This document shows, one piece after another, positions 19,262 to 36,745 of a stretch of DNA of 64,000 bases (position 1 is its first letter; every line of letters starts with the position of its first letter). Under the pieces are notes generated by a model. It was not told the origin of the DNA, searched no databases, and saw only the letters and a program-made list of their open reading frames with translations. The stretch spans positions 13,047 to 77,046 of the forward strand of contig JBCBTQ010000002.1 of assembly GCA_039818605.1 (NCBI GenBank), given 5' to 3'. Made by a program: the position numbers and the translations under genes. The DNA comes from Cyanobacteria bacterium J06639_14 (GTDB lineage: Bacteria; Cyanobacteriota; Cyanobacteriia; Phormidesmidales; Phormidesmidaceae).

Positions 19262-22200
19262 TTACAACTCCGGACCCGCTTTAGCCTTGGCTTGCGAAAG
19301 ACAAGCCATATCCTTTGCCATCGTAACTGCGGCTTTATCCGATAAGGGTGTTCCCCTGACAACGTCTCGGGCAACCTCTGTGATACGACTGAGATAACCC
19401 CCTGGTCTTCCGAGCTGTTTTGCAGTCAAATGCCACTGCCAAAGCTGGTTCATTTCGGCGTTATTTGCAATCGGTTGGAATGTGTTCGCAGAGTCTTTTG
19501 CATATATCAACCGTTCATTCCAGTCCTTGCCATGCTTGGGCATCAATCGTTCTACCCCTGGTAGCTGCTCTGCGATGCGCCAAGCCATCAGCGTCCCCGC
19601 TTGATCAGCATCAAAAGCCGCGAATACTCGTCCACCCTCCTGAAGAACAGATTTCAGTGCGTCAATGGGCACTCCACCAGAACCGTCTGTAGACAGATAA
19701 ATGGTCACCCCTGGCTGAGGGTGGTTTCCTTTATCCAGTACAGCCAACGACATCGCATCAATGGGAGACTCCGTGAGGAAGACTCGCTGGACTGGGCCGT
19801 GACCTGTGCCAATCCAGAACCATCCCTGATTCCTGACCGACCCCGGAGCCAGTCCGTGATAATGATTGTCTTCGCCCCAAGTGCCCCGCAAACTGGCCCC
19901 GGTCACGTCTCCTCTTGTCCAGGTATTCTTCTTTAGACCATGTCGGACAAAGACGGCATTTTGATGATCATCGGCATAGACCAATCCCTTTTCATGCAGC
20001 CGATCCACCAATGTTGCTGGGAGCTTGCGAGTCTCCACCAAGTACTCCCGCACCGCATCCCACCTTTGCTCATTGGTAGCTGGCATTGCGAGCGATTTTG
20101 GCTCTCGTTCCTCAAGGTGCTGATACGTGCTGACATGACTTGGAAGATATGAAAGGTCTTGACCTGACAGCCACTCCACAGCGGCTTTGAACTCGACAGC
20201 TTGAACATGCATCACTAGGTCGATCGCGCCCCGTCCACCCTGATCCGCTAACCAATCCATGAACAGTGGACCACTGATACTGATGATGTGGTCACCATCA
20301 CGCCACTTGTGCTTGTCATAGCGATCGAGTTCCAGTCCCAGATTCGCGGCCACTATTTCCAAGCCAATGCCGCGCACCTCATCGGCAACATCTTGAAGAG
20401 AGGGCTGTGGCAACGGTTGCTGAGATGGTACTCTCACCGTTTTGGGTGTTGGTGTCGTCGGAATTGAATTTTGAGTTGAATCCTGCCAAGTCGGCTCATT
20501 TCCCAAATGATCACAATGCCCATTTTGAGGGGAAGAACTGAACTGATCGGCGTCGAAGAGACTCTGTACTTGAAACTCAGGCGCTTCGGTTTCTCTCTTA
20601 GCCGTCGTCTGGGCGGACTCTGGTTGCAAGGTTGGAGTGGGTGCGTCCTCGATTGCGATTTGATCTGCTTGCTGAACATGAACGGTGATTGCTCCATTGA
20701 TGTCTGCGATCGCCACCTCACTGACCTGCCTCAACGATTCCAAATACTTCTCCAAACTTTTCACTGGGAAACCGGCTGCCGGTATCCTCTCAGCATCCGG
20801 AGCCGTAGATGTCTGGCTGGTGAGAATCAGATCAAGGGTTTGGGCTAGCTGTTTAGCATCGTCAAAGAAGGTTTCGTAGAAGCGGCGATCGCTTGTTTGC
20901 ACTAGCACAAGTGCCTCAGGGTACTGGTCTTTGACTGCCAAATATTGTTGGACATCGGTGGGGAACGCCTGCCGCTCACCCCCAACTCGCTCACCTGATG
21001 GCGGCCCATCTGCTGCTGTAACCTTCTCTTCCTCCTGAGATTGATCTACGTGTGGCCTGGCAGCTTCAGCAAACCCCTGATGGTTGATGTTGCGGGCAAA
21101 GAGGCGAGCAAAACCTCGGTCACAACTGCGAAACTCTCCCCCGAAGGACTGCACAGCGGTTTCTCTCAGGGTTAGATAGCCGCCCTCAGCAATACCGAAC
21201 ACCATCTCGGTGTCGATGAACATGTCGCCGTTCTGGGTCAGGTAATGGGTGAGGTAGAGTTGGTCGCCGTGACGCTCTACCACTAGGGGAATGTAGGGCT
21301 CGTTCTCAATGCGTCGGTGGAAGTCGTCGCCCTGCAAGACCACTTCAGCCAGTCCGGCAGTGTGCAGAAACTTGGCCACTTGTTTCTCAGCACCACCAGT
21401 CTGTTCCTTCAGGGGAGCAATGCGCTGAGCATTCTGGGACAAATTCGGTTGTGGAATGGGATTCTCAAGGTGGGGCTGTGGGGGAGCCGGAGCGTTTGCT
21501 GTGGTCTCTACTTCTATCTTCTGAGCCGATCTGATGTCCTGGTCGGATTCATCCTGATCTTTAACCTGTGCAGGCTCCTCGGATACCTCCACAAACAGAC
21601 TCTCCAACTGCTCACGGGTTTGCGGTGTCGGTTCCGGTACATAGGGTACATAGTCACCCTGTGCCGCAAAGGTGTTGGTCTCCACCAGCTCCAAAGTCGG
21701 CAGTGCTTCATCCAAATAAGCTCGCGCCTGATCCTTGAAATCGAAGGCTGCTAGGGTAAGTTTCTTCTCCTGCATCACCACTGCAAGCACCGGGTCGATG
21801 CGATCGGCGGTCACCACCGCCTCCATCCGATCACTCACCGAATAAAAGTCGGATCCCACCGCCGCCAGAATGTCCTGATCCAGAAAATACTGCCCGCCCA
21901 CGCTGGTGGCCTTGGGCGTCTGCAACACAAATCCGTGGGTCTGACTGCCTCCGAGCCGCGCTGCTGCCTGGGTCTTAATTACCAGAGACTCATCCAGGGT
22001 CTTCACCACCCCCTTGTTGCCAGTGACTTCTGTCAGAAACGCCTTCACCTGATAAGGTTCGCGGAAGGCGACGGGTTCGGCCCGCAGGGACTCCTCAATG
22101 TCAAAGCCCGCAGGCATCATCAGTCCCTGGCGAATGCGCCCTTGATGGTCGGTATAGTTAAGGAACTGACCACGTGGATATTTCTCGAAGGCTCGCAGCA

Positions 22201-25200
22201 GATTGCCGGTGAAGATTTGCGCCTCCCGTCGCTGCTGGGCTTGCTTGTGGTCAAAGGCGGCGTAAATATCCATGCCGTCCCAGTTCGTCGCCTGGGGCAA
22301 GAGACTCACGGAATTGTCTTTATCGGTGTTGACTTTGGAGAGGGGAAAAGTGATCTGGCGAGAATGGTTGTCGGTGAGCACCTGGAGCCGCCAGTTAGTC
22401 GGGGCAGCGGGACTGCCCTGCCGCCCCCTTTGCCAGACATTGGCCACCACCCCATAGACGATGTGGCTCTGCTCCGAAACAAGCTGCACTGGAGTGCCAG
22501 GGAGAAACTCGGTCAGGATGTCGGTAATCTGGTCGAGTTGACTCGCAAGGCGATCGCTCAATTTGCCTCGGGCCTCCGGAGTTTTCTTCGTCAGCATCGT
22601 GCGGCGACGATAGTCCTGCAACTGCTGCTGGAGATCTTGCAAGGTGGCCTCTGTCTTTTGTGCTGCTAGAGCCTGCACCTGATCGAAGTCGTGGTCAGCG
22701 ACGGCTTTAATGGCTGCCATCCCCAGCACCTCTCGTACCGTATTCATTACCTGCAACTGGGTCAGGGGCTTCACCGGAATCTTGGCATCCATCACTTCGA
22801 GGTACACCGGGCCAGTGAACTCATTGCGAATACCGCTGTCGTCGGGAATCACCTCCATACGAGCAATCGTCCGGGCATCGAGATCCAACTGTTCCGCTGA
22901 CAAGACGTTTTCGCCCATCGCCTGCTTCTGTGCAATCAGGTCTTGGGTCTCGGACTCAATTAGGCTGTAGAGGGCCTCCTGCTCTTCGATAGGCAGCAGG
23001 GGAATCCGCCCGGTTACTCGGCTAATCAACTCGATGTCGGAACTGCCCTGAAGATTTTCGGCAGGATAGGCCAGTCGCGCTTGCAGTTCCGGGTCATCCT
23101 CCAAAATCTCCTGCACCACGGCTTCTCCGTAGATATTCATGAAGTCCACCACGTTGGTGACGGACAGATCCGAATCGCGAGACGCGGTGGTATTGGCGTT
23201 GAGGGAGGCCATCTTTTTGGCCAGCAAAGCTCCCAGCCGCTTCTCCGCAGGCAGATCGGACATCAGCAGCGTGAAGCGCGGTTCGACTACCTGACCAAAG
23301 CGGTTAGCTCGTCCCAGCATCTGCATCACCTGGTTAATGTCTCGCTCGGCCTGGGCCACAATCATGTGGCGGGGCCGCTGGTCGGCAAACTTCTCGGACG
23401 CATGGAGACTGATGCCGGTGGAACCAGAACGGTTCAGAATCACCACATCCAGTTGTCCATGATTGAAGCGATTGACCACTTCGATCTTGCCCTGAGGTTT
23501 CGTTTCCTGGCTGGAGCGGCGACCATAGGACATCGGGCGATCTCCCCCATACTCCACAATGTTTTTGCGGCCCGTGACTTCATCGACGGTGTAGCCTTTC
23601 TGGTGCAGTCGCCATTTGATGTAGTCAATGGAACTGAGGGGCACCTGGGATAGGTCGGTGTCGGCAATCAGCTCTCGGGCGGCATCGTAGGCGGCCACGC
23701 CATCCGCCCCGAGTTCCTCATCCGTCAGGCGGCGGCGAGTCTGCAGACCCTCAAAGTCTTTCAGCACCACATCGCGCGATCGTTCCAGGTAGCGTCCCAA
23801 AACATCGCCAAAGGAAATGTCGAGTTCATTCCCTGGTTCTAAGCCATTATCTTTGGCGTACCAGTCGATAAAAGTATCCATTGTCGAGGCCACGGCAATC
23901 AGAGGCTTTTCTCCGTTTTGCAAAGCTTGAATCGCCGACTGCACAGTGGCTTCGGCTTTCTGACACAGCAACCCCTGGTCGATAGCGTTGTGCATCAGGG
24001 AAGTAAAGTTGGTGGAATGCACCCCCACCTGTCCCACGGCATTGTCCAGACCCAACTGCTTGGCTTGTTGCTTTAGGTCCTTTCGCAGGTCGGTCAAGGC
24101 CGCCACTTTGGCCCGGTCAAAGGCATCCACCGACCGCATGATGGCGGAAATGCCGTCCGCTACTTCCCGATCCACCGGCACCACCTGAGCCAAAAAGGAG
24201 ATGTTTTCAAAAGACCGCTCCCGGCGCAGCAGTTGACCCGAGGCGACAAACTTGGTGGCCATCATCTGCTGCAGGGGAATGCCCCCGGCCTGAAGACTCC
24301 GCTCCAGGCTGCCCAGACTGGAAACGGCCTGCATGGCATCACTGCGACGGGCATAGAGATCCATTACGGCTGGGTCTTTGGTCGCGGTCGCGCTCATGAA
24401 CACCGCCCCAGCACAGTGGTCGATTAGCTCTCGCACAAACTCTGACCGATTAGGCGGCCCGCTGGTTTTCCAGGACGGGGATTGTCCGGTACTGCCACCG
24501 GCCTCATGGGATTCATCGAAGACAAAGATGGTTCTGGGGGCCAAGGCACGAAAGAACTGGCGACGCAGGGGTTCCTTATTCTTGATGGTTTGCAGTTGAC
24601 TATAGGTGGTGAAGATGGCTCCGTAGTCTTGTCCCAACTCCCCTTGCTGCACCAGGCGACGCATCTCGGTTTCCTGCTCGCTGCCGCTCCCCGTTTTGAG
24701 GACGCGACCGTCATCCAGGCGTAAGGTCAGGTTGTTATTGGTCAGAAAGGGAGTGAACCCTGGTTTGCCGATATCCGCCAGGTCATTGATCATGGCGTTG
24801 TACAGGTCAGGTTGGCGGGTGACAAAGATGGGGATATACCCCTGCCGCCGCGCATCAATTAGATTAGCGGCCCCAAATCGTCCCTTGCCATTGCCCGTCT
24901 GGTCACCGTTGAGGAAAATCTTGCCGCGATCTCGTTGGTCAAAGGCTAGCGCTAAAGAGTCGATCTGCTCGGCGTAGAGCACCTGCCACATCGCTGCTTT
25001 GGAGTCATAGCCTAACCGCTGACTGACAAACTCATCAATGTTTCCATGCGTTTGCTCTACCCGCTGCAGGGCGACCTGAGCAGCGGCGGCCATGTTCGCC
25101 GGAATCAGTGTCCTCGGTGACGTGCCCTGACTGCGAGGAACATAGGGAATGTTGTGGACTTGAGTCTCAATTTTGGGAGCGGGTTCTGGGGTAACCACAG

Positions 25201-26692
25201 GCAGTGGCCTCAACTCATCTCGGCGGTCAGATAACTCAGCCAGGTTTCCAGGGTCATCTCCTCGTCGTGTTCCGCCTGCCACGCCTCCTGGATCTCGCTC
25301 GGGAGTTGTACGCGGATCGGGAAGCTCCAGCCGTTCTGCAGGTCGAAGCGGGTTCTCAGGGTTTCGTTGTGATGAACGAGGGTCTCGCTCCAGTCTTCGG
25401 CCCATTCCAACCGGGGGCGCAGTTCCTGAGTGCCGGGGAGATGCAGCAGCGGCGGCATCTGCTGAGAATAGAGAATCTGCAGGGCTTGAGCGAGGCGGTG
25501 AGCGGTCTCTGGCTGGGTCTCCCCGGTTGCGCTCATCCAGGTGCGAATCATCCACTGCACCCGCAGACTCATCAGGTGCTCGTAGAGCGCTTCGCTCAGG
25601 TGCGTCAAACTGGGAGGCACCCGTACCAGGAATAAGCCCTGATCGCCTGTTGTCTGCGGTTTCCAGATCAGGCTGTAGGTCTCGTAGTCCTGGTAGGTGG
25701 GGGGATGGGTGATGTAATCTTTCATCGGGAATCAGTTCCTTGAGTTCAGCAAAGGACTTGTAAATCGGTGGGACAACCGCTGCCGGTAAGGGGAGTTCTG
25801 ATTGCCCTCGTCCGGCAATCACCATGACATCGATGGGGAAGCCAGCACCTTGCTTGCGATACAGGTCACCCGAAATGGAAAAGTGCTGGATGACGCGGTA
25901 CTGCTGATAAAGCGGATAGAAGAATCCCCGGCTTTCGAGGGTGTTGTACAGGTCGGAGCGCCGGTTCTCCGCCTCTCCCAGCTTGCCGCCCATGATGAGT
26001 ACCGCGCGGCCATTTTCTTTCATCGCCTTGAGCGCCTGGAAGGCAATCGCCTGATCAATCTGCGTTGTGCCTCGTCGATTACCTGGCAAGGTGAATCTAC
26101 GACGCTGCCCCTGTTCATCTCGCACGGCACCAAAGGGGGGATTGGCGATGACGACATCATGCTGCTGGTCGGGTTGATACTCGCTGGCATCGAACTGAGT
26201 GACGGAGTAGCCCTGAGCCCGCAGATCAGCCGCGCGATCTGGATTGAGTTCATTGACGGTGACCTTAGCCGGATCCGTTCCCAGCAGCAATGCGCTATGT
26301 CCGGCAGTCGGTTCATAGACAGTGGTATTGGGATTAATTCCCGCCAGAGTCGAAGCTAAAAAGGCGATAGGGATGGGGGTGCTGTACGCCTGTTGCAGAA
26401 CGCTGGTGGAGGAGCGGACATTCAGGGCCGGTTGGCGATCGTGCAACTCTACTAGCCGATCATAGGTGTCGTGAGTGGTCGCTGCAGTTTGGAGAATCGC
26501 CTGAGCGCTTCTCACCACGCCAGCTTCAACTGCTTCATCCACTTGCTTAGCCAGCACCGTACCCGGAAGCACCGGTTCACTCAACACATCAGCCGCGTGT
26601 TTGCGGGCCTGGGTGATCGTGGCAAAGCTTTCCCCGGCCTCAAAGTGACGGGCAAAGAATTCCACCAGTTCCGGCTGATGCGCCATCCCCAT
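19262..26692 (-). CDS. Polyvalent conjugative-element protein: N6-adenine DNA MTase + strawberry-notch/SNF2-like helicase + MutS-domain-I-like + DUF3991/Toprim
   Basis: MTase motifs EPTAGHSALL and NPPF (~26132-26143). Helicase motifs VFDESHEAGG (~24500-24523) and GRANRFGQ (~23293-23316). MutS_I-like QQYLAVKDQYPEALVLVQTSDRRFYETFFDDAKQLAQTLDLILTS...IPAAGFP (~20700-20955). C-terminal Toprim-like VFLTESPIDAMSLAVL...YLSTDGSGG...AFDADQAG (~19400-20100). Confidence 0.85.
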   Translation of the reverse strand: MGMAHQPELVEFFARHFEAGESFATITQARKHAADVLSEPVLPGTVLAKQVDEAVEAGVVRSAQAILQTAATTHDTYDRLVELHDRQPALNVRSSTSVLQQAYSTPIPIAFLASTLAGINPNTTVYEPTAGHSALLLGTDPAKVTVNELNPDRAADLRAQGYSVTQFDASEYQPDQQHDVVIANPPFGAVRDEQGQRRRFTLPGNRRGTTQIDQAIAFQALKAMKENGRAVLIMGGKLGEAENRRSDLYNTLESRGFFYPLYQQYRVIQHFSISGDLYRKQGAGFPIDVMVIAGRGQSELPLPAAVVPPIYKSFAELKELIPDERLHHPSPHLPGLRDLQPDLETADNRRSGLIPGTGASQFDAPERSALRAPDESAGAVDDSHLDERNRGDPARDRSPPRSSPADSLFSADAAAAASPRHSGTAPPVGMGRRLERDPRSSQRNPENPLRPAERLELPDPRTTPERDPGGVAGGTRRGDDPGNLAELSDRRDELRPLPVVTPEPAPKIETQVHNIPYVPRSQGTSPRTLIPANMAAAAQVALQRVEQTHGNIDEFVSQRLGYDSKAAMWQVLYAEQIDSLALAFDQRDRGKIFLNGDQTGNGKGRFGAANLIDARRQGYIPIFVTRQPDLYNAMINDLADIGKPGFTPFLTNNNLTLRLDDGRVLKTGSGSEQETEMRRLVQQGELGQDYGAIFTTYSQLQTIKNKEPLRRQFFRALAPRTIFVFDESHEAGGSTGQSPSWKTSGPPNRSEFVRELIDHCAGAVFMSATATKDPAVMDLYARRSDAMQAVSSLGSLERSLQAGGIPLQQMMATKFVASGQLLRRERSFENISFLAQVVPVDREVADGISAIMRSVDAFDRAKVAALTDLRKDLKQQAKQLGLDNAVGQVGVHSTNFTSLMHNAIDQGLLCQKAEATVQSAIQALQNGEKPLIAVASTMDTFIDWYAKDNGLEPGNELDISFGDVLGRYLERSRDVVLKDFEGLQTRRRLTDEELGADGVAAYDAARELIADTDLSQVPLSSIDYIKWRLHQKGYTVDEVTGRKNIVEYGGDRPMSYGRRSSQETKPQGKIEVVNRFNHGQLDVVILNRSGSTGISLHASEKFADQRPRHMIVAQAERDINQVMQMLGRANRFGQVVEPRFTLLMSDLPAEKRLGALLAKKMASLNANTTASRDSDLSVTNVVDFMNIYGEAVVQEILEDDPELQARLAYPAENLQGSSDIELISRVTGRIPLLPIEEQEALYSLIESETQDLIAQKQAMGENVLSAEQLDLDARTIARMEVIPDDSGIRNEFTGPVYLEVMDAKIPVKPLTQLQVMNTVREVLGMAAIKAVADHDFDQVQALAAQKTEATLQDLQQQLQDYRRRTMLTKKTPEARGKLSDRLASQLDQITDILTEFLPGTPVQLVSEQSHIVYGVVANVWQRGRQGSPAAPTNWRLQVLTDNHSRQITFPLSKVNTDKDNSVSLLPQATNWDGMDIYAAFDHKQAQQRREAQIFTGNLLRAFEKYPRGQFLNYTDHQGRIRQGLMMPAGFDIEESLRAEPVAFREPYQVKAFLTEVTGNKGVVKTLDESLVIKTQAAARLGGSQTHGFVLQTPKATSVGGQYFLDQDILAAVGSDFYSVSDRMEAVVTADRIDPVLAVVMQEKKLTLAAFDFKDQARAYLDEALPTLELVETNTFAAQGDYVPYVPEPTPQTREQLESLFVEVSEEPAQVKDQDESDQDIRSAQKIEVETTANAPAPPQPHLENPIPQPNLSQNAQRIAPLKEQTGGAEKQVAKFLHTAGLAEVVLQGDDFHRRIENEPYIPLVVERHGDQLYLTHYLTQNGDMFIDTEMVFGIAEGGYLTLRETAVQSFGGEFRSCDRGFARLFARNINHQGFAEAARPHVDQSQEEEKVTAADGPPSGERVGGERQAFPTDVQQYLAVKDQYPEALVLVQTSDRRFYETFFDDAKQLAQTLDLILTSQTSTAPDAERIPAAGFPVKSLEKYLESLRQVSEVAIADINGAITVHVQQADQIAIEDAPTPTLQPESAQTTAKRETEAPEFQVQSLFDADQFSSSPQNGHCDHLGNEPTWQDSTQNSIPTTPTPKTVRVPSQQPLPQPSLQDVADEVRGIGLEIVAANLGLELDRYDKHKWRDGDHIISISGPLFMDWLADQGGRGAIDLVMHVQAVEFKAAVEWLSGQDLSYLPSHVSTYQHLEEREPKSLAMPATNEQRWDAVREYLVETRKLPATLVDRLHEKGLVYADDHQNAVFVRHGLKKNTWTRGDVTGASLRGTWGEDNHYHGLAPGSVRNQGWFWIGTGHGPVQRVFLTESPIDAMSLAVLDKGNHPQPGVTIYLSTDGSGGVPIDALKSVLQEGGRVFAAFDADQAGTLMAWRIAEQLPGVERLMPKHGKDWNERLIYAKDSANTFQPIANNAEMNQLWQWHLTAKQLGRPGGYLSRITEVARDVVRGTPLSDKAAVTMAKDMACLSQAKAKAGPEL
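25210..25725 (-). CDS. 171-codon ORF nested out of frame (+1) in the MTase-helicase linker of the polyvalent gene
   Basis: ATG at 25725 with an in-frame TGA 9 nt upstream and AAGGAA 11 nt upstream. Sequence looks globular (MKDYITHPPTYQDYETYSLIWKPQ...). Third-position G/C enrichment sits in this frame, not in the host frame. Confidence 0.45.
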   Translation of the reverse strand: MKDYITHPPTYQDYETYSLIWKPQTTGDQGLFLVRVPPSLTHLSEALYEHLMSLRVQWMIRTWMSATGETQPETAHRLAQALQILYSQQMPPLLHLPGTQELRPRLEWAEDWSETLVHHNETLRTRFDLQNGWSFPIRVQLPSEIQEAWQAEHDEEMTLETWLSYLTAEMS

Positions 26693-26695
26693 TCC

Positions 26696-28225
26696 CTACT
26701 CACCCACCGCGAGTTCCAGGGGCGGATGGCGTTGCCTTGGATTGATCGGGGTCACCGTCGCAGGAGCGTGCAGCTTCAAGTCCTGGCTGAGTTCTCGGTC
26801 GATGAACCGAAAGTAGGTGATGTCCTTGGGCGTCAACTCCGACTTGATTTTACCGTTGTCGATGCTGAGGATGATGCCCCGCTCAGCCGCCTGAAGCTTG
26901 AGGCTATGGGGTGTTTCCTCAATGCGATACTGACTGCCGCCCTGAAAGATGCGCTTACCCTGGACGTTGGGCCGACTACCGGTGACATCCAAGAGTTTGC
27001 GAGCCGTTTTGGCCAGGGCTAGGGCCGTTAAGTCACGGGTCAATCCCCGATCGCCTGCCGGAGCCAGGTTGCCAAGCTGCCGCGATCGCATCGGCGGTTC
27101 CGAAGAAATTCCGTCCAGCCCTTGAATTTGAATCTGCTGACGTGCTTTCAGGAAATCCGCTTCCTGAGACGCAACCATCTCGTTTTTGAGGATGTCCAGC
27201 CTCCAGCGCGTCTTGCGGAACATCATCAGTTCTGTCCCTTCGCGATCGGTGAGGATAACCATGTGACCTTTCGCGCTGAGGGTATATTTCTCAGCGATAT
27301 ACAGGCCTCTGCCAGGGCTGTAGGCGGTGCCAAATTTCTGTAGTAAGTCCACAGCCGTGGAGGCAACCTGACGACTACGAATCTTGGCGGCAATGGCCAC
27401 GACCTTATCGGTCAGCTGCTGGGACGATCGCCGCATGACGCGAGTGGTCTGCTGCATCCATTTCCGGGTTGCAGTTTCCACAACCTGCTGGTTCTGGCGA
27501 TCTAAGACGTCGAGGATGGAAACGACGTTAGGGGATTGCAGCTTCAGCGGTTGAGCCGCCAATGGCTGCTGATCGGGGATGGCAGGTTCAGGTGTCGTTA
27601 TGGACGAAGGCACTACCGACTCTGGTAAACGAGAAGGCGTTTCGTGCTCTTTGGTTTCAGGCTGTTCAAGGACTTCTGGAGAAATGTCTGCTGTTGAGAT
27701 CGGACTTTGATCACCCTCTAGAGCTGAATCTTCCTGTTGATTGGCACTGCTAGGGTGCAGTTGGTTCACCTCTACAGCCCCTTTGCTAAGGCGATAGACC
27801 AACTCATCCCCGGCTTTGATATTGACCGTCCCTTTGACATCTGAGGTAACTGCACCCTCGGTTTGTGATGGTGCATCCAACGCCGCTTGCAACAGCTTCA
27901 GCTTGTTGAGACTGAGCTTGTCGATGGGGTCTTTATCGGCATAGCCTTCCCGGTAGACGATTTCGCGACCCAGTTTGATTTCAATGGGTTCCGGAGTGTC
28001 TTGTGGCAATTCGTCTAATCCGTCCCATTGTTCATCCGTCTGGGCTTCTGCTTTCTCCCGCTTTCGGGCAGCCTGGAGGCGATCGCGCAGCATCTGGATA
28101 AAGGCTTGCACGGCCTCAGCAGTGGATTGAGCCGTCACAGCGGCGATTTCGCTAGAGGCGAGGGTGGTGTGGGCATAGTCCTGCTCAATTTGTTTGGCTT
28201 CGCCCGGATTTACAACGGCTTGCAT
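26696..28225 (-). CDS. Hypothetical conjugative-element protein (509 aa)
   Basis: Long ORF in the operon; its stop is 3 nt from the polyvalent gene start. Acidic/Pro-rich central linker. No motif recognised. Confidence 0.6.
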   Translation of the reverse strand: MQAVVNPGEAKQIEQDYAHTTLASSEIAAVTAQSTAEAVQAFIQMLRDRLQAARKREKAEAQTDEQWDGLDELPQDTPEPIEIKLGREIVYREGYADKDPIDKLSLNKLKLLQAALDAPSQTEGAVTSDVKGTVNIKAGDELVYRLSKGAVEVNQLHPSSANQQEDSALEGDQSPISTADISPEVLEQPETKEHETPSRLPESVVPSSITTPEPAIPDQQPLAAQPLKLQSPNVVSILDVLDRQNQQVVETATRKWMQQTTRVMRRSSQQLTDKVVAIAAKIRSRQVASTAVDLLQKFGTAYSPGRGLYIAEKYTLSAKGHMVILTDREGTELMMFRKTRWRLDILKNEMVASQEADFLKARQQIQIQGLDGISSEPPMRSRQLGNLAPAGDRGLTRDLTALALAKTARKLLDVTGSRPNVQGKRIFQGGSQYRIEETPHSLKLQAAERGIILSIDNGKIKSELTPKDITYFRFIDRELSQDLKLHAPATVTPINPRQRHPPLELAVGE

Positions 28226-28611
28226 GGTCTTTCCTCCATTGCTTTTAGGGTTTCGAGATTAAGTTGCGGGACAGCTGGCAGACGGTTAATCACTTCCCGC
28301 CCTTGTACGGAGAAATAGGCGGTTTCACCATCCACCAACCACTCGACCAGTTCCGGCTGATAGTCAGCGGCAACGGGCGGGCATTGATAGGTCATTTGGC
28401 CGTCCTGCCATTCCACGACAGTGACGTCATCAAACAGGACGCTGACTTCGCGAGGCACATAGTCCTCGGCCAATCGGGGCTGATCGAATACCGGAAGTAA
28501 CTCAGCCGCGATTTCGGGATGTTCCAGCAATGCTGCCAGCGTTTCAGCGGGGAGCTTGTCTCCCAAGGCTTGAAGTAGCATGGGTTCGGAATTTTGAAGA
28601 TGGGATGTCAC
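28210..28611 (-). CDS. Hypothetical protein (133 aa)
   Basis: In-operon ORF that overlaps the downstream gene by 16 nt. No motif recognised. Confidence 0.5.
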   Translation of the reverse strand: MTSHLQNSEPMLLQALGDKLPAETLAALLEHPEIAAELLPVFDQPRLAEDYVPREVSVLFDDVTVVEWQDGQMTYQCPPVAADYQPELVEWLVDGETAYFSVQGREVINRLPAVPQLNLETLKAMEERPCKPL

Positions 28612-28621
28612 AAAGCACCTC

Positions 28622-30352
28622 CTAAAGCAAACTGCCGTATTTGTCGATTAGATCAGCGGGGTCAGGATAGGCGGAATTAACGGGGGCAGGGGGTTCCGGC
28701 AGCATCGCTTCCACCAGCTGCCGTCGTCGCTCCAGGTCTTGCGTGGTAGGGACTCGTTGGGGACTGCGCTGCATTAGACGCGCTTGAATCTTGGTCCAGA
28801 GCGCTTCACTGGCCGCTGTTGCTTGCAGATCCGCCTTCGGAATCTTGATGGTCTGCCGAATGGGGATGGCGGCTTCTCCTTTGGAGATAAAGCCCGGATT
28901 GATCAGGACGCACTTTCCTTGGGGCAGCCGGAGAAACTGGCTCGGTTCAAACAGCTTGCGAGTGCGTTCCTGCTCAGAAATCGTAGTGCTGGATTTGCCG
29001 CCCCCGCGATTACGAGATTTCTGCTTGTAGCGGATCTCTTCATCCCCGAGAAAGTCAGAGAACATGCGAGCCGCTTCGTATTCCTGGGGATTGAAGATGG
29101 CTTTGGTCGCACAGGCTCCCAAGATGGCCCTTGCCAGCTCCCGCCCGTAGGTTTTCTCTAACTGCACCAGATTTTGAAAACCCAGGATGACCGACAGTCC
29201 ATCCTCTCGGTTTTCGTTCAGCCACTGCACCAGGGTCGGCAGATACAGCGTCGGCAACTCGTCGATCGCGACAATTAGCGGGTCTTGCCGTCGCTTGGCG
29301 ACATTGCGAGTGACAATCATATGGAGGACAGTCGCCACCAAGGGACCAACCACGTCCCGTCGTTCTCGATCCATTCCAAAAATCAGCAGTTGCTTCCCGC
29401 TTAATTCCAGAGGGATGGACGTGCGACCACAGAAGCTGCCCAGGACACCTTCCTTCATGAAGCGGGTAAAGGTTTCGCTGGCACTGCCGACGATGCCGCT
29501 AGCGGTTTTCTCCGCATCTTTCACCCCAATTAGCTGATTGAACGAGACGCGAATCCAACTGTTCATGTTCTTGGCTGCGGCGATGCGGTTCCCCAAGTTC
29601 GTCAACCCCAGCACCGCCTGAGCGGTCATGATATCGGGATACTCGGTAGACTTTGCCAGCATTAACAGCGCTTCGGTAAGCTGATCACCAGCAGCGGCAA
29701 AGAAGCCATCTTCATTGCTCTGGGTCATCAGCCGAAAGTTCTTGTTCAGCACCGTGGCAATCTGCCGGGCCATCTCCGCATCGGACTCGCTGCGGAGGAA
29801 ATCGATAGGGTTACACACGCCGGACTCAGGAAAACCGGGAGCCAAGACATGGACCTGGTAGCCCAACTTAGCCGCATAGGCCGCGTGGCGAGCACTCTGA
29901 GTCGGATATTTGAAGTCGTACAAAGCGACCGGCAATCCCTGCTCCAGCGCAGACCGGATCAGCGGGTCGATGACACTGAAAGTCTTGCCAGAACCCGGCC
30001 CACCACAGACCGCAACGCCCCGCTGTAGGTCCGGCAGGTAAATCGACCGGGCATCTTTGGGGCGCTTGGGTTTGCCGATGTAGAGCGACACGGCATTATG
30101 CTGACGGGCAGTCAGTTGTTTCACAGCTCGCTTACGCGCCGCTCCTTTTTCTTTAGCGCTGCCGAAGCGACTGGTGGCCAGCTTGCCTTTCTTACGATCG
30201 CCCCACAGCGCCAAGCCCCCCACCAGCAGCAAACAGCCCAACAAAACTAGACCATTGCGGGACTGGAGGGAGGAAGCCAGTTGGGAAAGAGACTCATTGG
30301 TAGCCGAATCAGCCTGGGCCAACGTTGGAGGTTGTTCTGTAAAGGTCTTCAT
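28622..30352 (-). CDS. Type IV secretion coupling protein (VirD4/TraG/TraD family)
   Basis: N-terminal TM segment, Walker A CGGPGSGKTFS, Walker B LIVAIDELPTL. Confidence 0.9.
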   Translation of the reverse strand: MKTFTEQPPTLAQADSATNESLSQLASSLQSRNGLVLLGCLLLVGGLALWGDRKKGKLATSRFGSAKEKGAARKRAVKQLTARQHNAVSLYIGKPKRPKDARSIYLPDLQRGVAVCGGPGSGKTFSVIDPLIRSALEQGLPVALYDFKYPTQSARHAAYAAKLGYQVHVLAPGFPESGVCNPIDFLRSESDAEMARQIATVLNKNFRLMTQSNEDGFFAAAGDQLTEALLMLAKSTEYPDIMTAQAVLGLTNLGNRIAAAKNMNSWIRVSFNQLIGVKDAEKTASGIVGSASETFTRFMKEGVLGSFCGRTSIPLELSGKQLLIFGMDRERRDVVGPLVATVLHMIVTRNVAKRRQDPLIVAIDELPTLYLPTLVQWLNENREDGLSVILGFQNLVQLEKTYGRELARAILGACATKAIFNPQEYEAARMFSDFLGDEEIRYKQKSRNRGGGKSSTTISEQERTRKLFEPSQFLRLPQGKCVLINPGFISKGEAAIPIRQTIKIPKADLQATAASEALWTKIQARLMQRSPQRVPTTQDLERRRQLVEAMLPEPPAPVNSAYPDPADLIDKYGSLL

Positions 30353-30885
30353 GGCAGTACCTCGTAGCTCTCGGGCGGTAGCTCAATGCCCAACTGCTCC
30401 AGCGCCCAAATGTGTTCGGGCGGAAATTCGCTGCGGGTCCCTTCCGGAGCGCCTGTGAGATAGTCCGTCAGCTGCTGTTGATACGTCTCCTGACCACCTT
30501 GCTCCTGAAGAACACGGGTGTAACGCTGGAGCGCTAACTCCCGTGCCAGTTGGAGGGGAATGTAGTGGCTGAGCACCGGATCGTCTTCTGGCAAGAGCGA
30601 TCGGCAGGTTTCTTCAGGAGCCAAGTAAATCAGGACCTCCTGATAGACGTCCTCATCACCCTCCGTCCAGATGGTGCCAATTAGGTGATAATTGCCGGTC
30701 TCGGTGTCAACGACGCCCCAGACCTTGGCGCTTTGGGTTGATGGCGGCAGGCAAGTTTGGACGGTGGCGGGAATGTCGTCTGAGGCTCGCACCAGATTCA
30801 GACTGACCGATGCAATCAGGCTGATCAGCAGGATCAAGATCCCGAGGAGTGGGAGCAATAGGGTGCGATTTCGTCTCATAATCAC
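30349..30885 (-). CDS. Hypothetical protein with N-terminal TM/signal anchor
   Basis: 178-aa ORF whose stop overlaps the T4CP start (ATGA). Confidence 0.55.
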   Translation of the reverse strand: MIMRRNRTLLLPLLGILILLISLIASVSLNLVRASDDIPATVQTCLPPSTQSAKVWGVVDTETGNYHLIGTIWTEGDEDVYQEVLIYLAPEETCRSLLPEDDPVLSHYIPLQLARELALQRYTRVLQEQGGQETYQQQLTDYLTGAPEGTRSEFPPEHIWALEQLGIELPPESYEVLP

Positions 30886-30891
30886 TGGCCC

Positions 30892-32601
30892 TCAACTGAG
30901 ATAGTTCATGGGATTCTGGGGCTGGCCATTCTGGCGAATCTCAAAGTGGAGATGCGGCCCCGTCGAGCTGCCGCTGCTATTAGCTCGCCCCACCGGATCG
31001 CCCTGGGCAATGATGTCGCCCTGCCGGACGAAAAAGCCCTGCAGGTGGGCGTAGTAGGTCTCCGATCCATTGCCGTGGTCAATGATGACGAGCCTGCCGT
31101 AGCCGCTAGTTAGAGAACCGCTGATGCCCGCGAAGGTGACCTGACCGCCATCGGCAGCGCGGATGATCGTGCCATTGGGCGTGCCCAAGTCCGTCCCGGC
31201 GTGGAGACGGCGATCGCCATGAATGGGGTGGGTGCGATAGCCAAAACTGCTGGTGATGGGATATCCCGGTGCCGGATTGATGAAGCCACCGGTAGCAATG
31301 CCAGGAGAGCTTGAAGTTCTAGCAACCGGCGTTGGAGCGGGGCTAGGCTCGCCGGTCTCAGGATCAATTCCTTTCGCCGCAGCTACTTCAGCAGAATCAG
31401 TGGTTGAAAGACCTTCCTTGATTTGCCCTAGGAACACCATCCCTTCCTCTTGGATAGGCAGCCAGGGAATGGGACCGATGAAGTAAGGCGTACAGCCCAA
31501 GTCCACAAAGGCATTGCGGACACACATGCGAAAGTAGAGTCCCGTTTCAGCGGTACCAGTAGCCTCATCGGTTTCCAGCACCGCGACCTTGAAGGCATTG
31601 CCAAAGGGGTGACGGCCCGTAGGCTCTAAACCACCGTTAGCCGAAGCTAATGTGCCTCGCCCCCCTTGAACTTGCTGATACTTGCCGGAAATCCACTGAG
31701 TGCCTTCCACTAATTCCGGTTGAGCCATTTCCAAATGGGCGCAATCAATCTGACAGGGAACGTTGAATCCTTCGACGTAGCTGCCGCTGATGGTGTTTGT
31801 CCGATCGCCCTCCGCCGAACCAAAGACTACATCCACCATCCCCACAACTACACCCTGCTCCACAATGGGATTGGGAAAATTGGCAAAGGGCACATCGGCT
31901 AGTCCAGGAATCTGGTCGATGACCGATTGCTGCCAGTCTTGAAAGGTTTCTAGGGGGGCATCGATCAGGCCTGGAATGGCGCTCAAATCGTACTGCTCCA
32001 AATTAATTTCCCCCAAGCTGAGTTCTGCCCAGACTTCGTTTTGAACCACCTCAGCAATCGTCTGGGGAACTTCAAGTTGGCCCTGGAGCAGATCGGCGAT
32101 CGGCGGCACGGCTGGGACGGGTAGATCGGCGAGATCCGGAATGGCTTGCACCAAATCCGCGATCGTCTGCCAGCCGACCAGCGCCAAATCGGCGAGCCTG
32201 AGCGCTTCCCAATCCAGACCGACGACAGCCCCAATGTCGGCCAGCGAAAATCGCTGTAGTTGAAAGCTGTCCTGGAAATCGCCCAGCAGCAGGTATTCAT
32301 CGGCAGTCTGTTCGGCTTGCCAAAGGCGAGAGGGATCGTAACCCAGCTGCCGAATGAGATCAGTCGGGGCTTCAAATGAGCCTGATTCCAAAATCTCGGG
32401 GAGCGATCGCAACGTAATTTGCGCCCAGTTAGGTTTGATGCCCAGCATCTGATCCTGAATGACCGGGACGGGCGAACCCGGCTGAGTGCTGGAGTGAGCG
32501 GGCGCAAGGGGCCAAAGATGTAGGGCGATCGCGAAAACAAAGACAAGCAGCCCTATCACAGACCACCCGAGGCGTCTGCGCCTAAAAATCGATGAGTTCA
32601 T
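30892..32601 (-). CDS. Secreted M23-family peptidoglycan endopeptidase (T4SS-associated cell-wall hydrolase)
   Basis: C-terminal HAGTDLGTPNGTIIRAADGG...YYAHL...GSSTGPHLHFEIR (HxxxD / HxH M23 motifs). N-terminal signal anchor. Confidence 0.85.
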   Translation of the reverse strand: MNSSIFRRRRLGWSVIGLLVFVFAIALHLWPLAPAHSSTQPGSPVPVIQDQMLGIKPNWAQITLRSLPEILESGSFEAPTDLIRQLGYDPSRLWQAEQTADEYLLLGDFQDSFQLQRFSLADIGAVVGLDWEALRLADLALVGWQTIADLVQAIPDLADLPVPAVPPIADLLQGQLEVPQTIAEVVQNEVWAELSLGEINLEQYDLSAIPGLIDAPLETFQDWQQSVIDQIPGLADVPFANFPNPIVEQGVVVGMVDVVFGSAEGDRTNTISGSYVEGFNVPCQIDCAHLEMAQPELVEGTQWISGKYQQVQGGRGTLASANGGLEPTGRHPFGNAFKVAVLETDEATGTAETGLYFRMCVRNAFVDLGCTPYFIGPIPWLPIQEEGMVFLGQIKEGLSTTDSAEVAAAKGIDPETGEPSPAPTPVARTSSSPGIATGGFINPAPGYPITSSFGYRTHPIHGDRRLHAGTDLGTPNGTIIRAADGGQVTFAGISGSLTSGYGRLVIIDHGNGSETYYAHLQGFFVRQGDIIAQGDPVGRANSSGSSTGPHLHFEIRQNGQPQNPMNYLS

Positions 32602-32622
32602 GGCCTTAACCAGAATGAAGGA

Positions 32623-33348
32623 CTAACGGTCAGTCGAAGTCAGCGGCGGATCATCGCGAGCCCTAGCTCCCCACTCTGCGAGTTGAGTAATCAGCTCTTG
32701 AGACACTCCGGCCTGTTCCGCCGCCAGCGGCATCTCTAGCCCTTGCTGAGTCATGTCTAGAAAGGTTTGCAGCCGCTGCCACAAATCCTGTTCGGGACGA
32801 ATCAGGTCTCTGGATGCGGCAATTGCTAAGCCCCGACGCACATCACCTGGACCCAACAGCGAATGAATGGGGGACGATGGCTGGACGGCAACGGTGTGGT
32901 AGTCCGGGTCGCCATCGCCAAATTCGATGCGAAATTCGTAGAGGTGACGAACTCCATTTGTCGCCTCGGTAATGACGGTCAGCAAGGTGCCGCTAGCGCT
33001 AGGCAAGTGCCTAAAGTCCAATCCCTGGATTCGCCGCAGGTGAATGACTGAGGGATTGCCGGAAACACAGTCTGATTCAGCAGCGGCAGGACAGAGCGGC
33101 TCATCAAAGTCCAGAGCTACCCGAGCGGGGTCATCGATCCATACCTGCACGATGTGTTCATTCGTGGGCAGGAAGCTGAGATTCGTGCCATAGCCGGTCC
33201 AGAGATGGACAACTGGCGTGACACCAAAGAGCCCTTGAGCCCGATCAGCAGAGATTGCCACCACAGATTGCGCCTGCGCAGTTGGGATGGGCCAGCCGCT
33301 GACAGCGATCGCCCCGATAAATAGCCAGGAAAGGCACTGTCTGTTCAT
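32623..33348 (-). CDS. Secreted hypothetical protein (possible VirB9-like component)
   Basis: Signal peptide ...PIPTAQA|QS. Position is adjacent to the VirB10-like gene. There is no motif-level support. Confidence 0.45.
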   Translation of the reverse strand: MNRQCLSWLFIGAIAVSGWPIPTAQAQSVVAISADRAQGLFGVTPVVHLWTGYGTNLSFLPTNEHIVQVWIDDPARVALDFDEPLCPAAAESDCVSGNPSVIHLRRIQGLDFRHLPSASGTLLTVITEATNGVRHLYEFRIEFGDGDPDYHTVAVQPSSPIHSLLGPGDVRRGLAIAASRDLIRPEQDLWQRLQTFLDMTQQGLEMPLAAEQAGVSQELITQLAEWGARARDDPPLTSTDR

Positions 33349-35581: not shown

Positions 35582-35604
35582 GAGCGGTTTCCTGTCGAGT
35601 ACTA

Positions 35605-36705: not shown

Positions 36706-36745
36706 GGCGAGAGAAATTTAAATTGACGTCATGACGAACTGACGA

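What the first reader, a model, noticed from the sequence alone, without database searches (positions are those of the whole stretch)
25198..25760. 171-codon ORF carrying the local codon-usage signal, nested +1 inside the linker of the 2476-codon polyvalent gene
The stretch linking the MTase domain to the helicase translates, in the host frame, as R/P/S/D/G-rich low-complexity sequence. Its codons are otherwise uncommon in this gene (11 CGA by my count, plus CTA/AGA/GGA/TCA). The +1 frame on the same strand is a clean 171-codon ORF (ATG 25725, TGA 25210) with a globular-looking sequence. By hand count, 38 of 171 nested-frame codons end in A/T, against 40 of the first 70 host-frame codons in the same stretch. 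The third-position G/C periodicity therefore sits in the nested frame. The nested ATG has an in-frame TGA 9 nt upstream and AAGGAA 11 nt upstream. None of the ~18 T-ending nested codons is followed by AA/AG/GA, and this is exactly what keeps the host frame open. The ORF track shows 4 of 6 frames open here (also 25173..25712 and 25204..25635 on the plus strand). I see three explanations. (a) A genuine overprinted gene, with the host reading through as a disordered linker. (b) An in-frame 171-aa domain disguised by two compensating 1-nt indels, for example in the CCC run (25727-25729) and the TT at 25212-25213. (c) Separate cistrons, since GAGG plus a GTG at 25198 lies just after the nested stop in the host frame.
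Basis: seen in the sequence. Interest (0 to 1): 0.8.

Follow-up and report, generated by a model that had tools for sequence, protein, structure and literature searches.

The report
Conserved gene nested inside polyvalent gene
A 171-codon gene for a well-folded, acidic, uncharacterised protein lies in the +1 frame inside the linker of a giant conjugative-plasmid methylase-helicase-primase gene, and both reading frames have been kept intact across cyanobacteria, which makes it an unusually well-supported, unannotated bacterial gene-within-a-gene.

Summary
The 171-codon +1 ORF (25210-25725, minus strand; "X") carries the coding periodicity. The 2476-codon host frame reads the same DNA as an R/S/P/G/D-rich stretch.

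X recurs at the same place in 46 distinct homologous methylase-helicase genes, down to about 30% identity, across several cyanobacterial orders. These include model strain PCC 7002 (plasmid pAQ6). X is never annotated in the plasmid records.

- **Start signal:** 39 of 40 loci keep an ATG with a Shine-Dalgarno core 5-16 nt upstream.
- **Fold:** a 46-sequence family alignment gives an AlphaFold model with pLDDT 94.6. It matches no known fold or family.
- **Host frame kept open:** 42 of 46 loci have zero host-frame stops, where 5-15 are expected (P about 1e-3 to 1e-9 per locus).
- **Natural control:** two free-standing X homologues carry 9-11 stops in that frame.
- **Synonymous rate:** in X it is about half that of the flanks.

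Best reading: a true dual-coding region. X is made from its own internal start, and the host reads through to tether methylase to helicase. A conserved in-frame ATG/GTG just after X's stop suggests a third product, a methylase-less helicase. Translation and X's function are untested.

The parts
19262..26692 (-). Host polyvalent ORF, 2476 aa: N6-adenine MTase-like N-terminus, Strawberry-notch (AAA_34 + Helicase_C_4) helicase, DUF6908, MutS_I, DUF3991, Toprim primase.
   Evidence: ORF; translation; Pfam hits. It follows T4SS genes on the same strand.
25727..26692 (-). MTase module of the host ORF. It ends in the conserved motif ...PPIYKSFAELKELIPDE.
   Evidence: It aligns with the MTase part of homologues, including Vogesella, which has no insert.
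25736..25741 (-). Shine-Dalgarno-like AAGGAA for gene X. It is encoded by the host Lys-Glu codons of the ELKEL motif and ends 10 nt before the ATG.
   Evidence: An SD core (GGAG/GAGG/AGGA) lies at -16..-5 in 39 of 40 unique loci, against 9.5% background. In every Lys-Glu/Asp-type motif printed the Lys codon is AAG, against 49% AAG in the flanks.
25732..25734 (-). TGA in the X frame, three codons upstream of the X ATG. It closes the X frame upstream.
   Evidence: In other clades the stop sits immediately before the ATG (L009, L014, L028).
25210..25725 (-). Gene X: 171 codons plus TGA, in the +1 frame relative to the host. It encodes an acidic (pI 4.96), Trp-rich, mainly helical globular protein of an uncharacterised family.
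   Evidence: (pLDDT 94.6, pTM 0.90). No Pfam, NCBIfam, PHROG, PADLOC, PDB or BFVD match.
25211..25726 (-). Dual-coded block read in the host frame (172 codons, about aa 323-494): an R/S/P/G/D-rich, hydrophobic-poor linker between MTase and helicase with no stop codon.
   Evidence: Expected host-frame stops 7.1, P(0) = 1e-4. The frame is open in 42 of 46 homologous loci.
25208..25211 (-). GAGG overlapping the X stop codon (T-GAGG), 9 nt upstream of the in-frame GTG. It is a candidate SD for re-initiation.
   Evidence: TGAGG + 9 nt + ATG/GTG is conserved in the whole window clade.
25196..25198 (-). Host-frame GTG (codon 499). It is a candidate internal start for a methylase-less helicase-primase product, 12 nt after the X stop.
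   Evidence: Gene callers use this position as the helicase start in related contigs. A host-frame ATG occupies the equivalent stretch in 34 of 40 loci and only GTG/TTG in 5 of 40.
19262..25195 (-). Helicase-DUF6908-MutS_I-DUF3991-Toprim part of the host ORF. It begins with the conserved ...NIPYVPRSQG motif.

Best explanation
This is a real dual-coding segment. One stretch of mRNA is read in two frames.

(1) Ribosomes that start at the polyvalent gene's ATG (26692) read straight through 25726-25211. They produce a roughly 170-residue hydrophilic, probably disordered tether that keeps the DNA methylase covalently joined to the Strawberry-notch helicase-primase. Insert-less relatives have this fused architecture directly.

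(2) Ribosomes that bind the internal Shine-Dalgarno AAGGAA (25741-25736) start at ATG 25725 in the +1 frame. They make X, a 171-aa acidic, Trp-rich, mostly helical globular protein, which terminates at TGA 25210.

(3) Probably, ribosomes that terminate X, or that initiate de novo, also start at the in-frame GTG 25198 (GAGG 9 nt upstream). This would give a helicase-primase that lacks the methylase.

Shown here: both frames are under selection, the start signals are conserved, and X belongs to a foldable protein family that also exists as free-standing genes.

Inferred: actual translation of each product, disorder of the linker, and the third product.

X's biochemical role is unknown. My best guess is an accessory partner or regulator of the polyvalent protein, or an anti-defence factor used when the conjugative element establishes itself. 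The guess rests only on its obligate co-location, its acidity and the conjugative context.
For: Coding signal and selection on X
- GC periodicity sits in the X frame.
- X-frame dN/dS is 0.2-0.5, while the host-frame 'dN/dS' over the block is 0.7-1.8.
- The family alignment shows invariant R55, W108 and W112 and many conserved aromatics.
- AlphaFold2 rises from pLDDT 42.7 with 8 sequences to 94.6 and pTM 0.90 with 46 sequences. That rise indicates a real co-evolution signal.

Conservation of the arrangement
- There are 48 unique X sequences. 46 lie inside MTase-helicase genes from Leptolyngbya, Acaryochloris, Picosynechococcus PCC 7002/7003/7117, NIES-970, Chroococcidiopsis, Pseudanabaenaceae, Limnothrix, Oculatella and many metagenomes.

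Selection on the host frame
- 42 of 46 loci have 0 host-frame stops, while the third sense frame has 6-19.
- An exact calculation gives 5-15 expected stops and P(0) = 1e-3 to 1e-9 per locus.
- T3 is 0.09-0.17 in X, against 0.19-0.29 in the flanks.
- Natural control: free-standing homologues P0056 and P0041 have 10-11 stops in the equivalent frame over the whole ORF (9-10 from the Met chosen).
- X-frame dS is 0.28-0.97 (median about 0.5) of flank dS in 12 pairs from several clades. Four-fold sites differ at 0.10-0.14 in X against 0.27-0.34 in the flanks in the window clade.

Start signals
- The ATG is conserved at the homologous position in all 24 loci inspected by eye.
- An SD core is present in 39 of 40 loci against 9.5% background.
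- Synonymous Lys/Glu choices preserve the SD.

Fusion is ancestral-like
- Vogesella has the MTase joined to the helicase by a short linker.

Never an in-frame domain
- All credible hits of the exhaustive search are ORFs of about 70-200 aa.
Against: - There is no expression evidence of any kind (no Ribo-seq, proteomics or RNA ends) for X, for the read-through protein or for the GTG-initiated product.
- Four of the 46 loci do have host-frame stops. All are metagenome contigs with at most 6x coverage. In three of them X is damaged too: L040 has invariant Trp changed to Gly, L046 has lost the ATG, and L050 has an in-frame stop. L030=L055 has one clean CTT|GAG stop, so the fusion may be dispensable in some lineages.
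- Synonymous suppression is absent in some pairs (L010-L012 ratio 0.97).
- The loci are phylogenetically related, so the per-locus P values cannot simply be multiplied.
- X has no functional annotation. The suggested accessory or anti-defence role is speculation.
Confidence: 0.78

Rival explanations
1. Three ordinary cistrons (MTase, X, helicase-primase) form the functional unit. The long open host frame across X is tolerated read-through with no function, and the 2476-aa ORF is an annotation illusion.
For: - Metagenome gene callers split the locus in exactly this way.
- SD + ATG for X, and ATG/GTG (often with an SD) just after the X stop, are conserved.
- One lineage (L030=L055) has a host-frame stop with X apparently intact.
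Against: - Zero host-frame stops in 42 of 46 loci, against 5-15 expected, cannot be neutral. Free-standing homologues carry 9-11.
- The T3 depletion and the reduced synonymous rate in X also need a second constraint.
- Related plasmids have the MTase and helicase directly fused.
Confidence: 0.1
2. X is really an in-frame domain of the polyvalent protein, reached by programmed ribosomal frameshifting: +1 into the X frame and back out at its end.
For: - An SD-like element upstream of the frame junction is also a known stimulator of frameshifting (established knowledge: prfB, dnaX).
- The junctions lie in conserved host motifs.
Against: - The X frame is closed 0-2 codons upstream of the ATG in several clades, so there is no room for an upstream shift site.
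- No slippery sequence is conserved at either junction.
- If ribosomes left the host frame, there would be no selection against host-frame stops inside the block.
- X ends in a real stop codon in every locus.
- There is no Rfam element.
Confidence: 0.03
3. Sequencing or assembly artefact: an in-frame 171-aa domain is disguised by two compensating 1-nt indels.
For: Homopolymer runs lie near both junctions in the window (CCC at 25727-25729; TT at 25212-25213).
Against: - The same frame relationship holds in 46 distinct loci from independent projects, including finished plasmids of cultured strains with unrelated junction sequences.
- The domain is never found in frame in 1.84 billion representative proteins.
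Confidence: 0.01
4. The host-frame linker is the only product, and the X ORF is a non-translated by-product of composition (a 'shadow ORF').
For: Four of six frames are open in the window. GC-rich DNA often has long shadow ORFs.
Against: - The antisense ORFs are not conserved (2-15 stops in relatives), whereas X is.
- X shows protein-like conservation.
- X's third codon position is the fastest-evolving.
- X gives a high-confidence co-evolution-driven fold.
- X has free-standing homologues elsewhere in genomes.
Confidence: 0.02

Closest known systems
Rz/Rz1 spanin genes of phage lambda (established knowledge, not tested here)
   Same: A complete gene with its own SD/ATG and stop is embedded in the +1 frame, on the same strand, inside another protein-coding gene. 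Both products are made.
   Different: Rz1 has about 60 codons and encodes a lipoprotein that partners with Rz in lysis. Here the nested gene has 171 codons and encodes a globular cytoplasmic-looking protein. It sits in an inter-domain linker of a 2476-aa conjugative-element protein, and the host-frame reading appears to be a low-complexity tether.
comS embedded out of frame in srfAB (Bacillus subtilis surfactin synthetase) (established knowledge)
   Same: A small regulatory gene is nested out of frame in a giant multi-domain ORF and is co-transcribed with it.
   Different: ComS is a 46-aa peptide with a narrow taxonomic range. X is a 150-175-aa folded domain family that is conserved across cyanobacterial orders and has free-standing paralogues.
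Overprinted genes of small phages and viruses (phiX174 A/B/K and D/E; tombusvirus p22/p19, PMC11044054; review PMC8227390)
   Same: Dual coding, asymmetric constraint between frames, reduced synonymous rate, and a tendency for one product to be disordered.
   Different: Those cases lie in size-constrained viral genomes. This one lies on large plasmids (65-325 kb in the records seen), where compaction pressure is weak. The frame that looks derived here is the host's linker, not the nested gene.
Long overlapping genes reported in bacteria (P. aeruginosa olg1/olg2, PMC8850804; EHEC laoB, PMC5810103)
   Same: Unannotated long ORFs inside annotated bacterial genes, argued to be under purifying selection.
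   Different: Those are antisense, taxonomically young and supported mainly by Ribo-seq. X is sense-strand (+1) and conserved down to about 30% identity. It is supported by comparative genomics and structure prediction, but has no expression data yet.
Polyvalent proteins with the DNA methylase-helicase dyad (Iyer et al. 2017, PMC5512222)
   Same: The host ORF is such a protein: MTase + Strawberry-notch SWI2/SNF2 helicase + primase modules on a conjugative element.
   Different: That survey does not mention overlapping or frameshifted genes within polyvalent ORFs, and it notes a paucity of polyvalent proteins in cyanobacteria.
In-frame internal translation starts giving N-terminally shortened isoforms (e.g. 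RK2 TrfA-44/33, IF2 isoforms; established knowledge)
   Same: The conserved in-frame ATG/GTG with an SD after the X stop could yield a methylase-less helicase-primase.
   Different: Here the internal start is positioned for termination-reinitiation coupling to an out-of-frame nested gene. This is untested.

Membership tests
Same-strand out-of-frame nested (overprinted) protein-coding gene pair | Two ORFs occupy the same DNA in different frames, with one wholly inside the other. | tested here: met
   X at 25210-25725 lies inside 19262-26692, offset +1.
Same-strand out-of-frame nested (overprinted) protein-coding gene pair | The nested product is under purifying, protein-level selection. | tested here: met
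   dN/dS is 0.2-0.5. The third codon position is the most variable. The family has 49 clusters at 50% identity. AF2 gives pLDDT 94.6.
Same-strand out-of-frame nested (overprinted) protein-coding gene pair | The host frame is also under selection across the overlap. | tested here: met
   There are 0 stops in 42 of 46 loci, against 5-15 expected. Free-standing controls have 9-11 stops. X-frame dS is about half the flank dS.
Same-strand out-of-frame nested (overprinted) protein-coding gene pair | The nested gene has independent translation-initiation signals. | tested here: met
   The ATG is conserved, and an SD core is present in 39 of 40 loci against 9.5% background.
Same-strand out-of-frame nested (overprinted) protein-coding gene pair | Both proteins are actually produced. 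| not testable with these tools
   No Ribo-seq or proteomics is available.
Polyvalent protein, MTase-SWI2/SNF2 (Strawberry notch) dyad | An N6-adenine MTase module and a Sno-type helicase lie in one polypeptide on a mobile element. | tested here: met
   Pfam gives AAA_34, Helicase_C_4 and Toprim_2 above their cut-offs. N6_Mtase and Eco57I are weak, but the NPPF motif is visible. T4SS genes are adjacent.
Programmed ribosomal frameshift site | A conserved slippery sequence lies at the frame junction, and the new frame is open upstream of it. | tested here: not met
   No motif is conserved at either junction. The X frame is closed 0-2 codons before the ATG in several clades. No Rfam hit.
Any described protein family for X (Pfam, NCBIfam, PHROGs, PADLOC, PDB, BFVD) | A significant sequence or fold match. 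| tested here: not met
   Searches give only scattered single-member noise. Foldseek's best hits are E > 1 with TM < 0.3.
Acidic anti-restriction / DNA-mimic proteins (ArdA, Ocr-like) | A strongly acidic small protein on a mobile element, with the ArdA/Ocr fold or family signature. | tested here: inconclusive
   Acidity is met (median pI 4.6, net charge -13) and the context is conjugative. There is no fold or sequence similarity to any solved structure. This is a resemblance only.

The most novel reading that the evidence does not exclude
The giant ORF became or stayed fused by reading through a resident, independently translated gene in another frame. The inter-domain 'linker' of the polyvalent protein would then be an overprint laid over gene X, a family that also exists free-standing. 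The locus would be a three-output translational unit: full-length MTase-helicase-primase, X, and a methylase-less helicase-primase re-initiated after X terminates. X would act as a dedicated partner, regulator or anti-defence factor of the conjugative element. A positionally equivalent +1 ORF with the same SD placement, and an ATGA stop/start overlap, in an alphaproteobacterial homologue (Thalassospira) hints that hidden genes in this linker are older and wider than cyanobacteria.
Probability: 0.3. Interest if true: 0.85.

Novelty: new variant of a known kind. Interest (0 to 1): 0.72.

Why it matters
Long sense-strand overlapping genes in cellular organisms are rare and often disputed, and annotation pipelines forbid them. 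In the plasmid records examined, X is never annotated; the whole locus is one 'strawberry notch' CDS. This includes the model strain PCC 7002.

This case offers several things:
- A comparative-genomic demonstration with a built-in negative control: free-standing paralogues that lack the stop avoidance.
- A new, confidently folded protein family with no known relatives.
- A concrete example of a 'disordered linker' whose sequence is largely dictated by another gene.
- Direct testability in a genetically tractable cyanobacterium, because single-nucleotide changes can silence one frame without altering the other.

It also warns that low-complexity linkers in polyvalent and other giant mobile-element proteins may hide genes.

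Tried and rejected
- **AlphaFold2 with 8 close sequences** gave pLDDT 42.7. This was uninformative and was superseded by the 46-sequence run.
- **Foldseek against PDB and BFVD** gave nothing. The top hits (sigma-factor region 2, E = 2-4, TM about 0.2) were rejected as noise.
- **Pfam, NCBIfam, PHROGs, PADLOC and PDB-sequence searches of the family** gave nothing.
I repeated it with A1.
- **Homology of the Thalassospira +1 ORF to X** was not detectable: hhalign probability 1.2%, no plasmid relatives and no relatives in the protein database.
- **Literature searches** found no description of this nested gene. The PCC 7002 proteogenomics paper does not mention pAQ6.
- **Antisense ORFs 25173..25712 and 25204..25635** were rejected as genes, because those frames have 2-15 stops in close relatives.
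- **Testing for selection on host-frame hydrophilicity by synonymous resampling** was considered and dropped. Host codon positions 2 and 3 are fixed by X's amino acids, so the test has almost no power.
- **Rfam scan of the block** gave nothing.
- **Which frame is older** was not resolved. The GC3 signal only shows which frame is more constrained.
Full report
**1. What is in the window.**

On the minus strand, a 2476-codon ORF (19262-26692) encodes a polyvalent protein. Its modules are:
- an N6-adenine-methylase-like N-terminus (weak Pfam hits; NPPF motif visible);
- a Strawberry-notch helicase (AAA_34, Helicase_C_4);
- DUF6908, MutS_I and DUF3991;
- a Toprim primase.

It directly follows type IV secretion genes on the same strand: a coupling protein at 28622-30352, an M23 peptidase at 30892-32601 and a TrbI homologue at 33345-34847. 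The element is therefore a conjugative plasmid or ICE. The nearest relatives are Leptolyngbyaceae-like cyanobacteria.

Between the methylase and the helicase, a 171-codon ORF (ATG 25725 to TGA 25210, here called X) lies in the +1 frame.

**2.

- 38 of 171 X codons end in A/T.
- 40 of the first 70 host codons end in A/T.
- There are 12 CGA codons in the host frame, against 2.2 expected.
- 19 X codons end in T, and none precedes one of the 38 codons that begin with AA, AG or GA.

Along the 7.4-kb gene the host-frame GC1/GC2/GC3 profile is about 0.65/0.42/0.66. Only in this block does it become about 0.78/0.66/0.42, which is the normal profile read in the X frame. In the host frame the block is 58% R/S/P/G/D and 13% hydrophobic. 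X itself has an ordinary globular composition.

**3. It is not an artefact, and X is never an in-frame domain.**

A search with X found seven protein clusters at 64-88% identity, all stand-alone ORFs of 170-173 aa. On their contigs the host frame is nevertheless uninterrupted and continuous with the methylase upstream and the helicase downstream.

Finished cyanobacterial plasmids carry the same gene annotated as a single CDS:
- Leptolyngbya NIES-3755;
- Acaryochloris marina S15 (two copies);
- Picosynechococcus PCC 7117, PCC 7003 and PCC 7002 (pAQ6);
- Synechococcus NIES-970;
- Chroococcidiopsis CCNUC1.

Each has a linker of about 190-210 aa, rich in R, S, D and G. Each also has, in the +1 frame, an ORF of 146-173 codons (counted from the conserved Met) whose product matches X. 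The six plasmid records other than Chroococcidiopsis give tblastn identities of 33-40% to X, and the Chroococcidiopsis copy was detected only by the family HMM, E = 2e-21.

Scans of GTDB genomes and JGI metagenomes and targeted look-ups added more loci.

An exhaustive profile search of 1.84 billion representative proteins found 49 clusters. All credible hits are ORFs of about 70-200 aa, and X is never part of a large protein. Together these results eliminate the compensating-indel idea.

**4. X encodes a real protein.**

- The 46-member alignment has invariant R55, W108 and W112 and a pattern of conserved aromatic and hydrophobic positions.
- X-frame dN/dS is 0.2-0.5, and the X third position evolves fastest. 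The host-frame 'dN/dS' over the block is 0.7-1.8, as expected if X is the more constrained reading.
- AlphaFold2 gave pLDDT 42.7 with eight close sequences but 94.6 (pTM 0.90) with the diverse alignment. That is the behaviour of a real co-evolving fold: six helices plus short strands.
- The family is consistently acidic (median pI 4.6, net charge -13) and Trp-rich.
- It matches nothing in Pfam, NCBIfam, PHROGs, PADLOC, PDB sequences, PDB folds or BFVD.

**5. The host frame is kept open by selection.**

A host-frame stop arises whenever an X codon ending in T precedes an X codon starting with AA, AG or GA. I made an exact calculation from each locus's X amino-acid sequence and the codon usage of its own flanks.
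- It predicts 5-15 host-frame stops per locus, with a probability of zero between about 1e-3 and 1e-9.
- Of 46 distinct nested loci, 42 have none, while the third sense frame has 6-19.
- T at X third positions is depleted: 0.09-0.17, against 0.19-0.29 in the flanks.

Two distant X homologues serve as a natural control. P0056 and P0041 are free-standing chromosomal genes with an N-terminal extension of 30-40 aa, next to ECF sigma, transketolase and similar genes. They were found by the window-clade profile at E = 1e-9 to 1e-14 for that subgroup. They carry 10-11 stops in the equivalent frame over the whole ORF (9-10 counted from the Met chosen), as expected.

The X-frame synonymous rate is also depressed relative to the flanking methylase and helicase codons. 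The dS ratio is 0.28-0.97, median about 0.5, over the 12 of 15 pairs with a defined flank dS. Four-fold sites differ at 0.10-0.14 against 0.27-0.34 in the window clade. This points to some constraint on the host-frame residues beyond stop avoidance.

The four exceptions are all metagenome contigs with at most 6x coverage:
- In three, X is damaged too: invariant Trp changed to Gly, ATG lost, or an in-frame stop.
- One (L030 = L055) has a single clean CTT|GAG stop.

**6. Start signals.**

In 39 of 40 unique loci an SD core (GGAG, GAGG or AGGA) lies 5-16 nt upstream of the conserved X ATG, against a 9.5% background. The SD is written into the host's conserved L-K-E-L or L-R-G motif. In every Lys-Glu/Asp-type motif printed the Lys codon there is AAG, although AAG is only 49% of Lys codons in the flanks.

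The X frame is closed 0-2 codons upstream of the ATG in several clades. No slippery motif is conserved, and Rfam finds nothing. Programmed frameshifting is therefore unlikely. It would also remove the need for an open host frame.

Downstream, a host-frame ATG lies between the X stop and the conserved Y-x-P-x-S helicase motif in 34 of 40 loci, in a segment averaging about 24 codons. Five more loci have only GTG/TTG there. An SD core is present in 20 loci.

In the window the arrangement is T-GAGG-N9-GTG (25212-25196). This is the site that gene callers choose as the helicase start in relatives. A separately initiated, methylase-less helicase-primase is therefore plausible, possibly coupled to X termination.

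**7. Evolutionary context.**

A betaproteobacterial homologue (Vogesella) joins the methylase to the helicase through a short linker. The fusion is therefore not peculiar to the X-bearing clade.

An alphaproteobacterial homologue (Thalassospira) has a low-complexity linker of about 130 aa with its own 128-codon +1 ORF. That ORF has AGGAG 10 nt upstream of its ATG, at the homologous host motif. Its TGA overlaps a host-frame ATG (ATGA), and it shows the same shifted periodicity. I could not show homology to X or find relatives.

Three origins remain open:
- a pre-existing X gene was captured;
- X arose de novo in a long linker;
- free-standing copies escaped from the nested position.

The GC3 signal only shows which frame is more constrained, not which is older.

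**8. Verdict.**

This is a conserved, unannotated, sense-strand (+1) nested gene in the linker of a conjugative-element polyvalent protein, with selection demonstrable on both frames.
- Mechanism: internal initiation for X, read-through for the tether, and probable re-initiation for a shorter helicase.
- Basis: inferred from conserved signals, not from expression data.
- X's function is unknown.

I found no description of it in the literature I could search, including the survey that defined polyvalent proteins.

It is a new variant of the known phenomenon of overprinted or nested genes. It is notable for its length, its deep conservation, its natural control and its testability in PCC 7002.

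Noticed in passing
L037:1949-2335 (Thalassospira lucentensis plasmid NZ_CP136683, inside CDS R1T41_RS00085): The alphaproteobacterial homologue of the polyvalent gene has a low-complexity linker of about 130 aa containing its own 128-codon +1 ORF. AGGAG lies 10 nt upstream of the ATG, at the homologous host L-Q-E-I motif. The nested TGA overlaps a host-frame ATG (ATGA), and the GC periodicity is shifted. No homology to X was detectable and no relatives were found.
   Followed up: partly
window 25173..25712 (+) and 25204..25635 (+): Two antisense ORFs (179 and 143 aa) are open across the same block in the window. The corresponding frames have 2-15 stops in close relatives, so they are by-products of composition and not conserved genes.
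   Followed up: yes
L032:5001-5609, L033, L034:2022-2627: Free-standing X homologues of about 200 aa have a conserved basic N-terminal extension (MKQKPLGRRYRPILRMNDLLHPTQQRERM...). They sit in a chromosomal-looking context (ECF sigma/anti-sigma, transketolase, CMAS-type methyltransferase, dynamin-like GTPase). The identical protein is seen on 17 contigs. Its function and its relation to the plasmid copies are unknown.
   Followed up: partly
window 26696-40278 (-): A conjugative transfer (T4SS) gene block lies immediately upstream of the polyvalent gene on the same strand: T4 coupling protein (28622-30352), M23 peptidase (30892-32601), TrbI/VirB10-like (33345-34847) and several ORFs with no Pfam hit, including a 937-aa ORF (37465-40278). 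The 509-aa ORF 26696-28225, also with no Pfam hit, ends 4 nt before the polyvalent ATG.
   Followed up: partly
L031 (CALRTB020000035.1, labelled MAG: Sphingobacterium thalpophilum): A contig binned as a Bacteroidota MAG carries an X copy 99% identical to that of Picosynechococcus PCC 7002 pAQ6. This is probably mis-binning or contamination rather than transfer.
   Followed up: no
L057:2032-3000: In this metagenome contig the host-like frame opens only about 170 codons upstream of X, and the methylase part appears in another frame (separate called genes 1192-1764 and 2032-2571). This may be a frameshifted or split methylase upstream of an intact X and helicase.
   Followed up: no
L039 (Leptolyngbya boryana NIES-2135 plasmid1, CDS NIES2135_62100): A related methylase module (49% identity) sits at about residue 1000-1180 of a different, roughly 3500-aa 'helicase domain protein'. 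No X homologue was detected in the stretch read. This shows that the methylase module occurs in other polyvalent architectures in cyanobacteria.
   Followed up: no
window 20453-20692 (-), host aa about 2001-2080: A second low-complexity linker (P/T/Q/S-rich) shows a marginal dip in GC3 (0.45, against 0.46 for GC2) but contains no long alternative-frame ORF. It is probably just a relaxed linker.
   Followed up: partly
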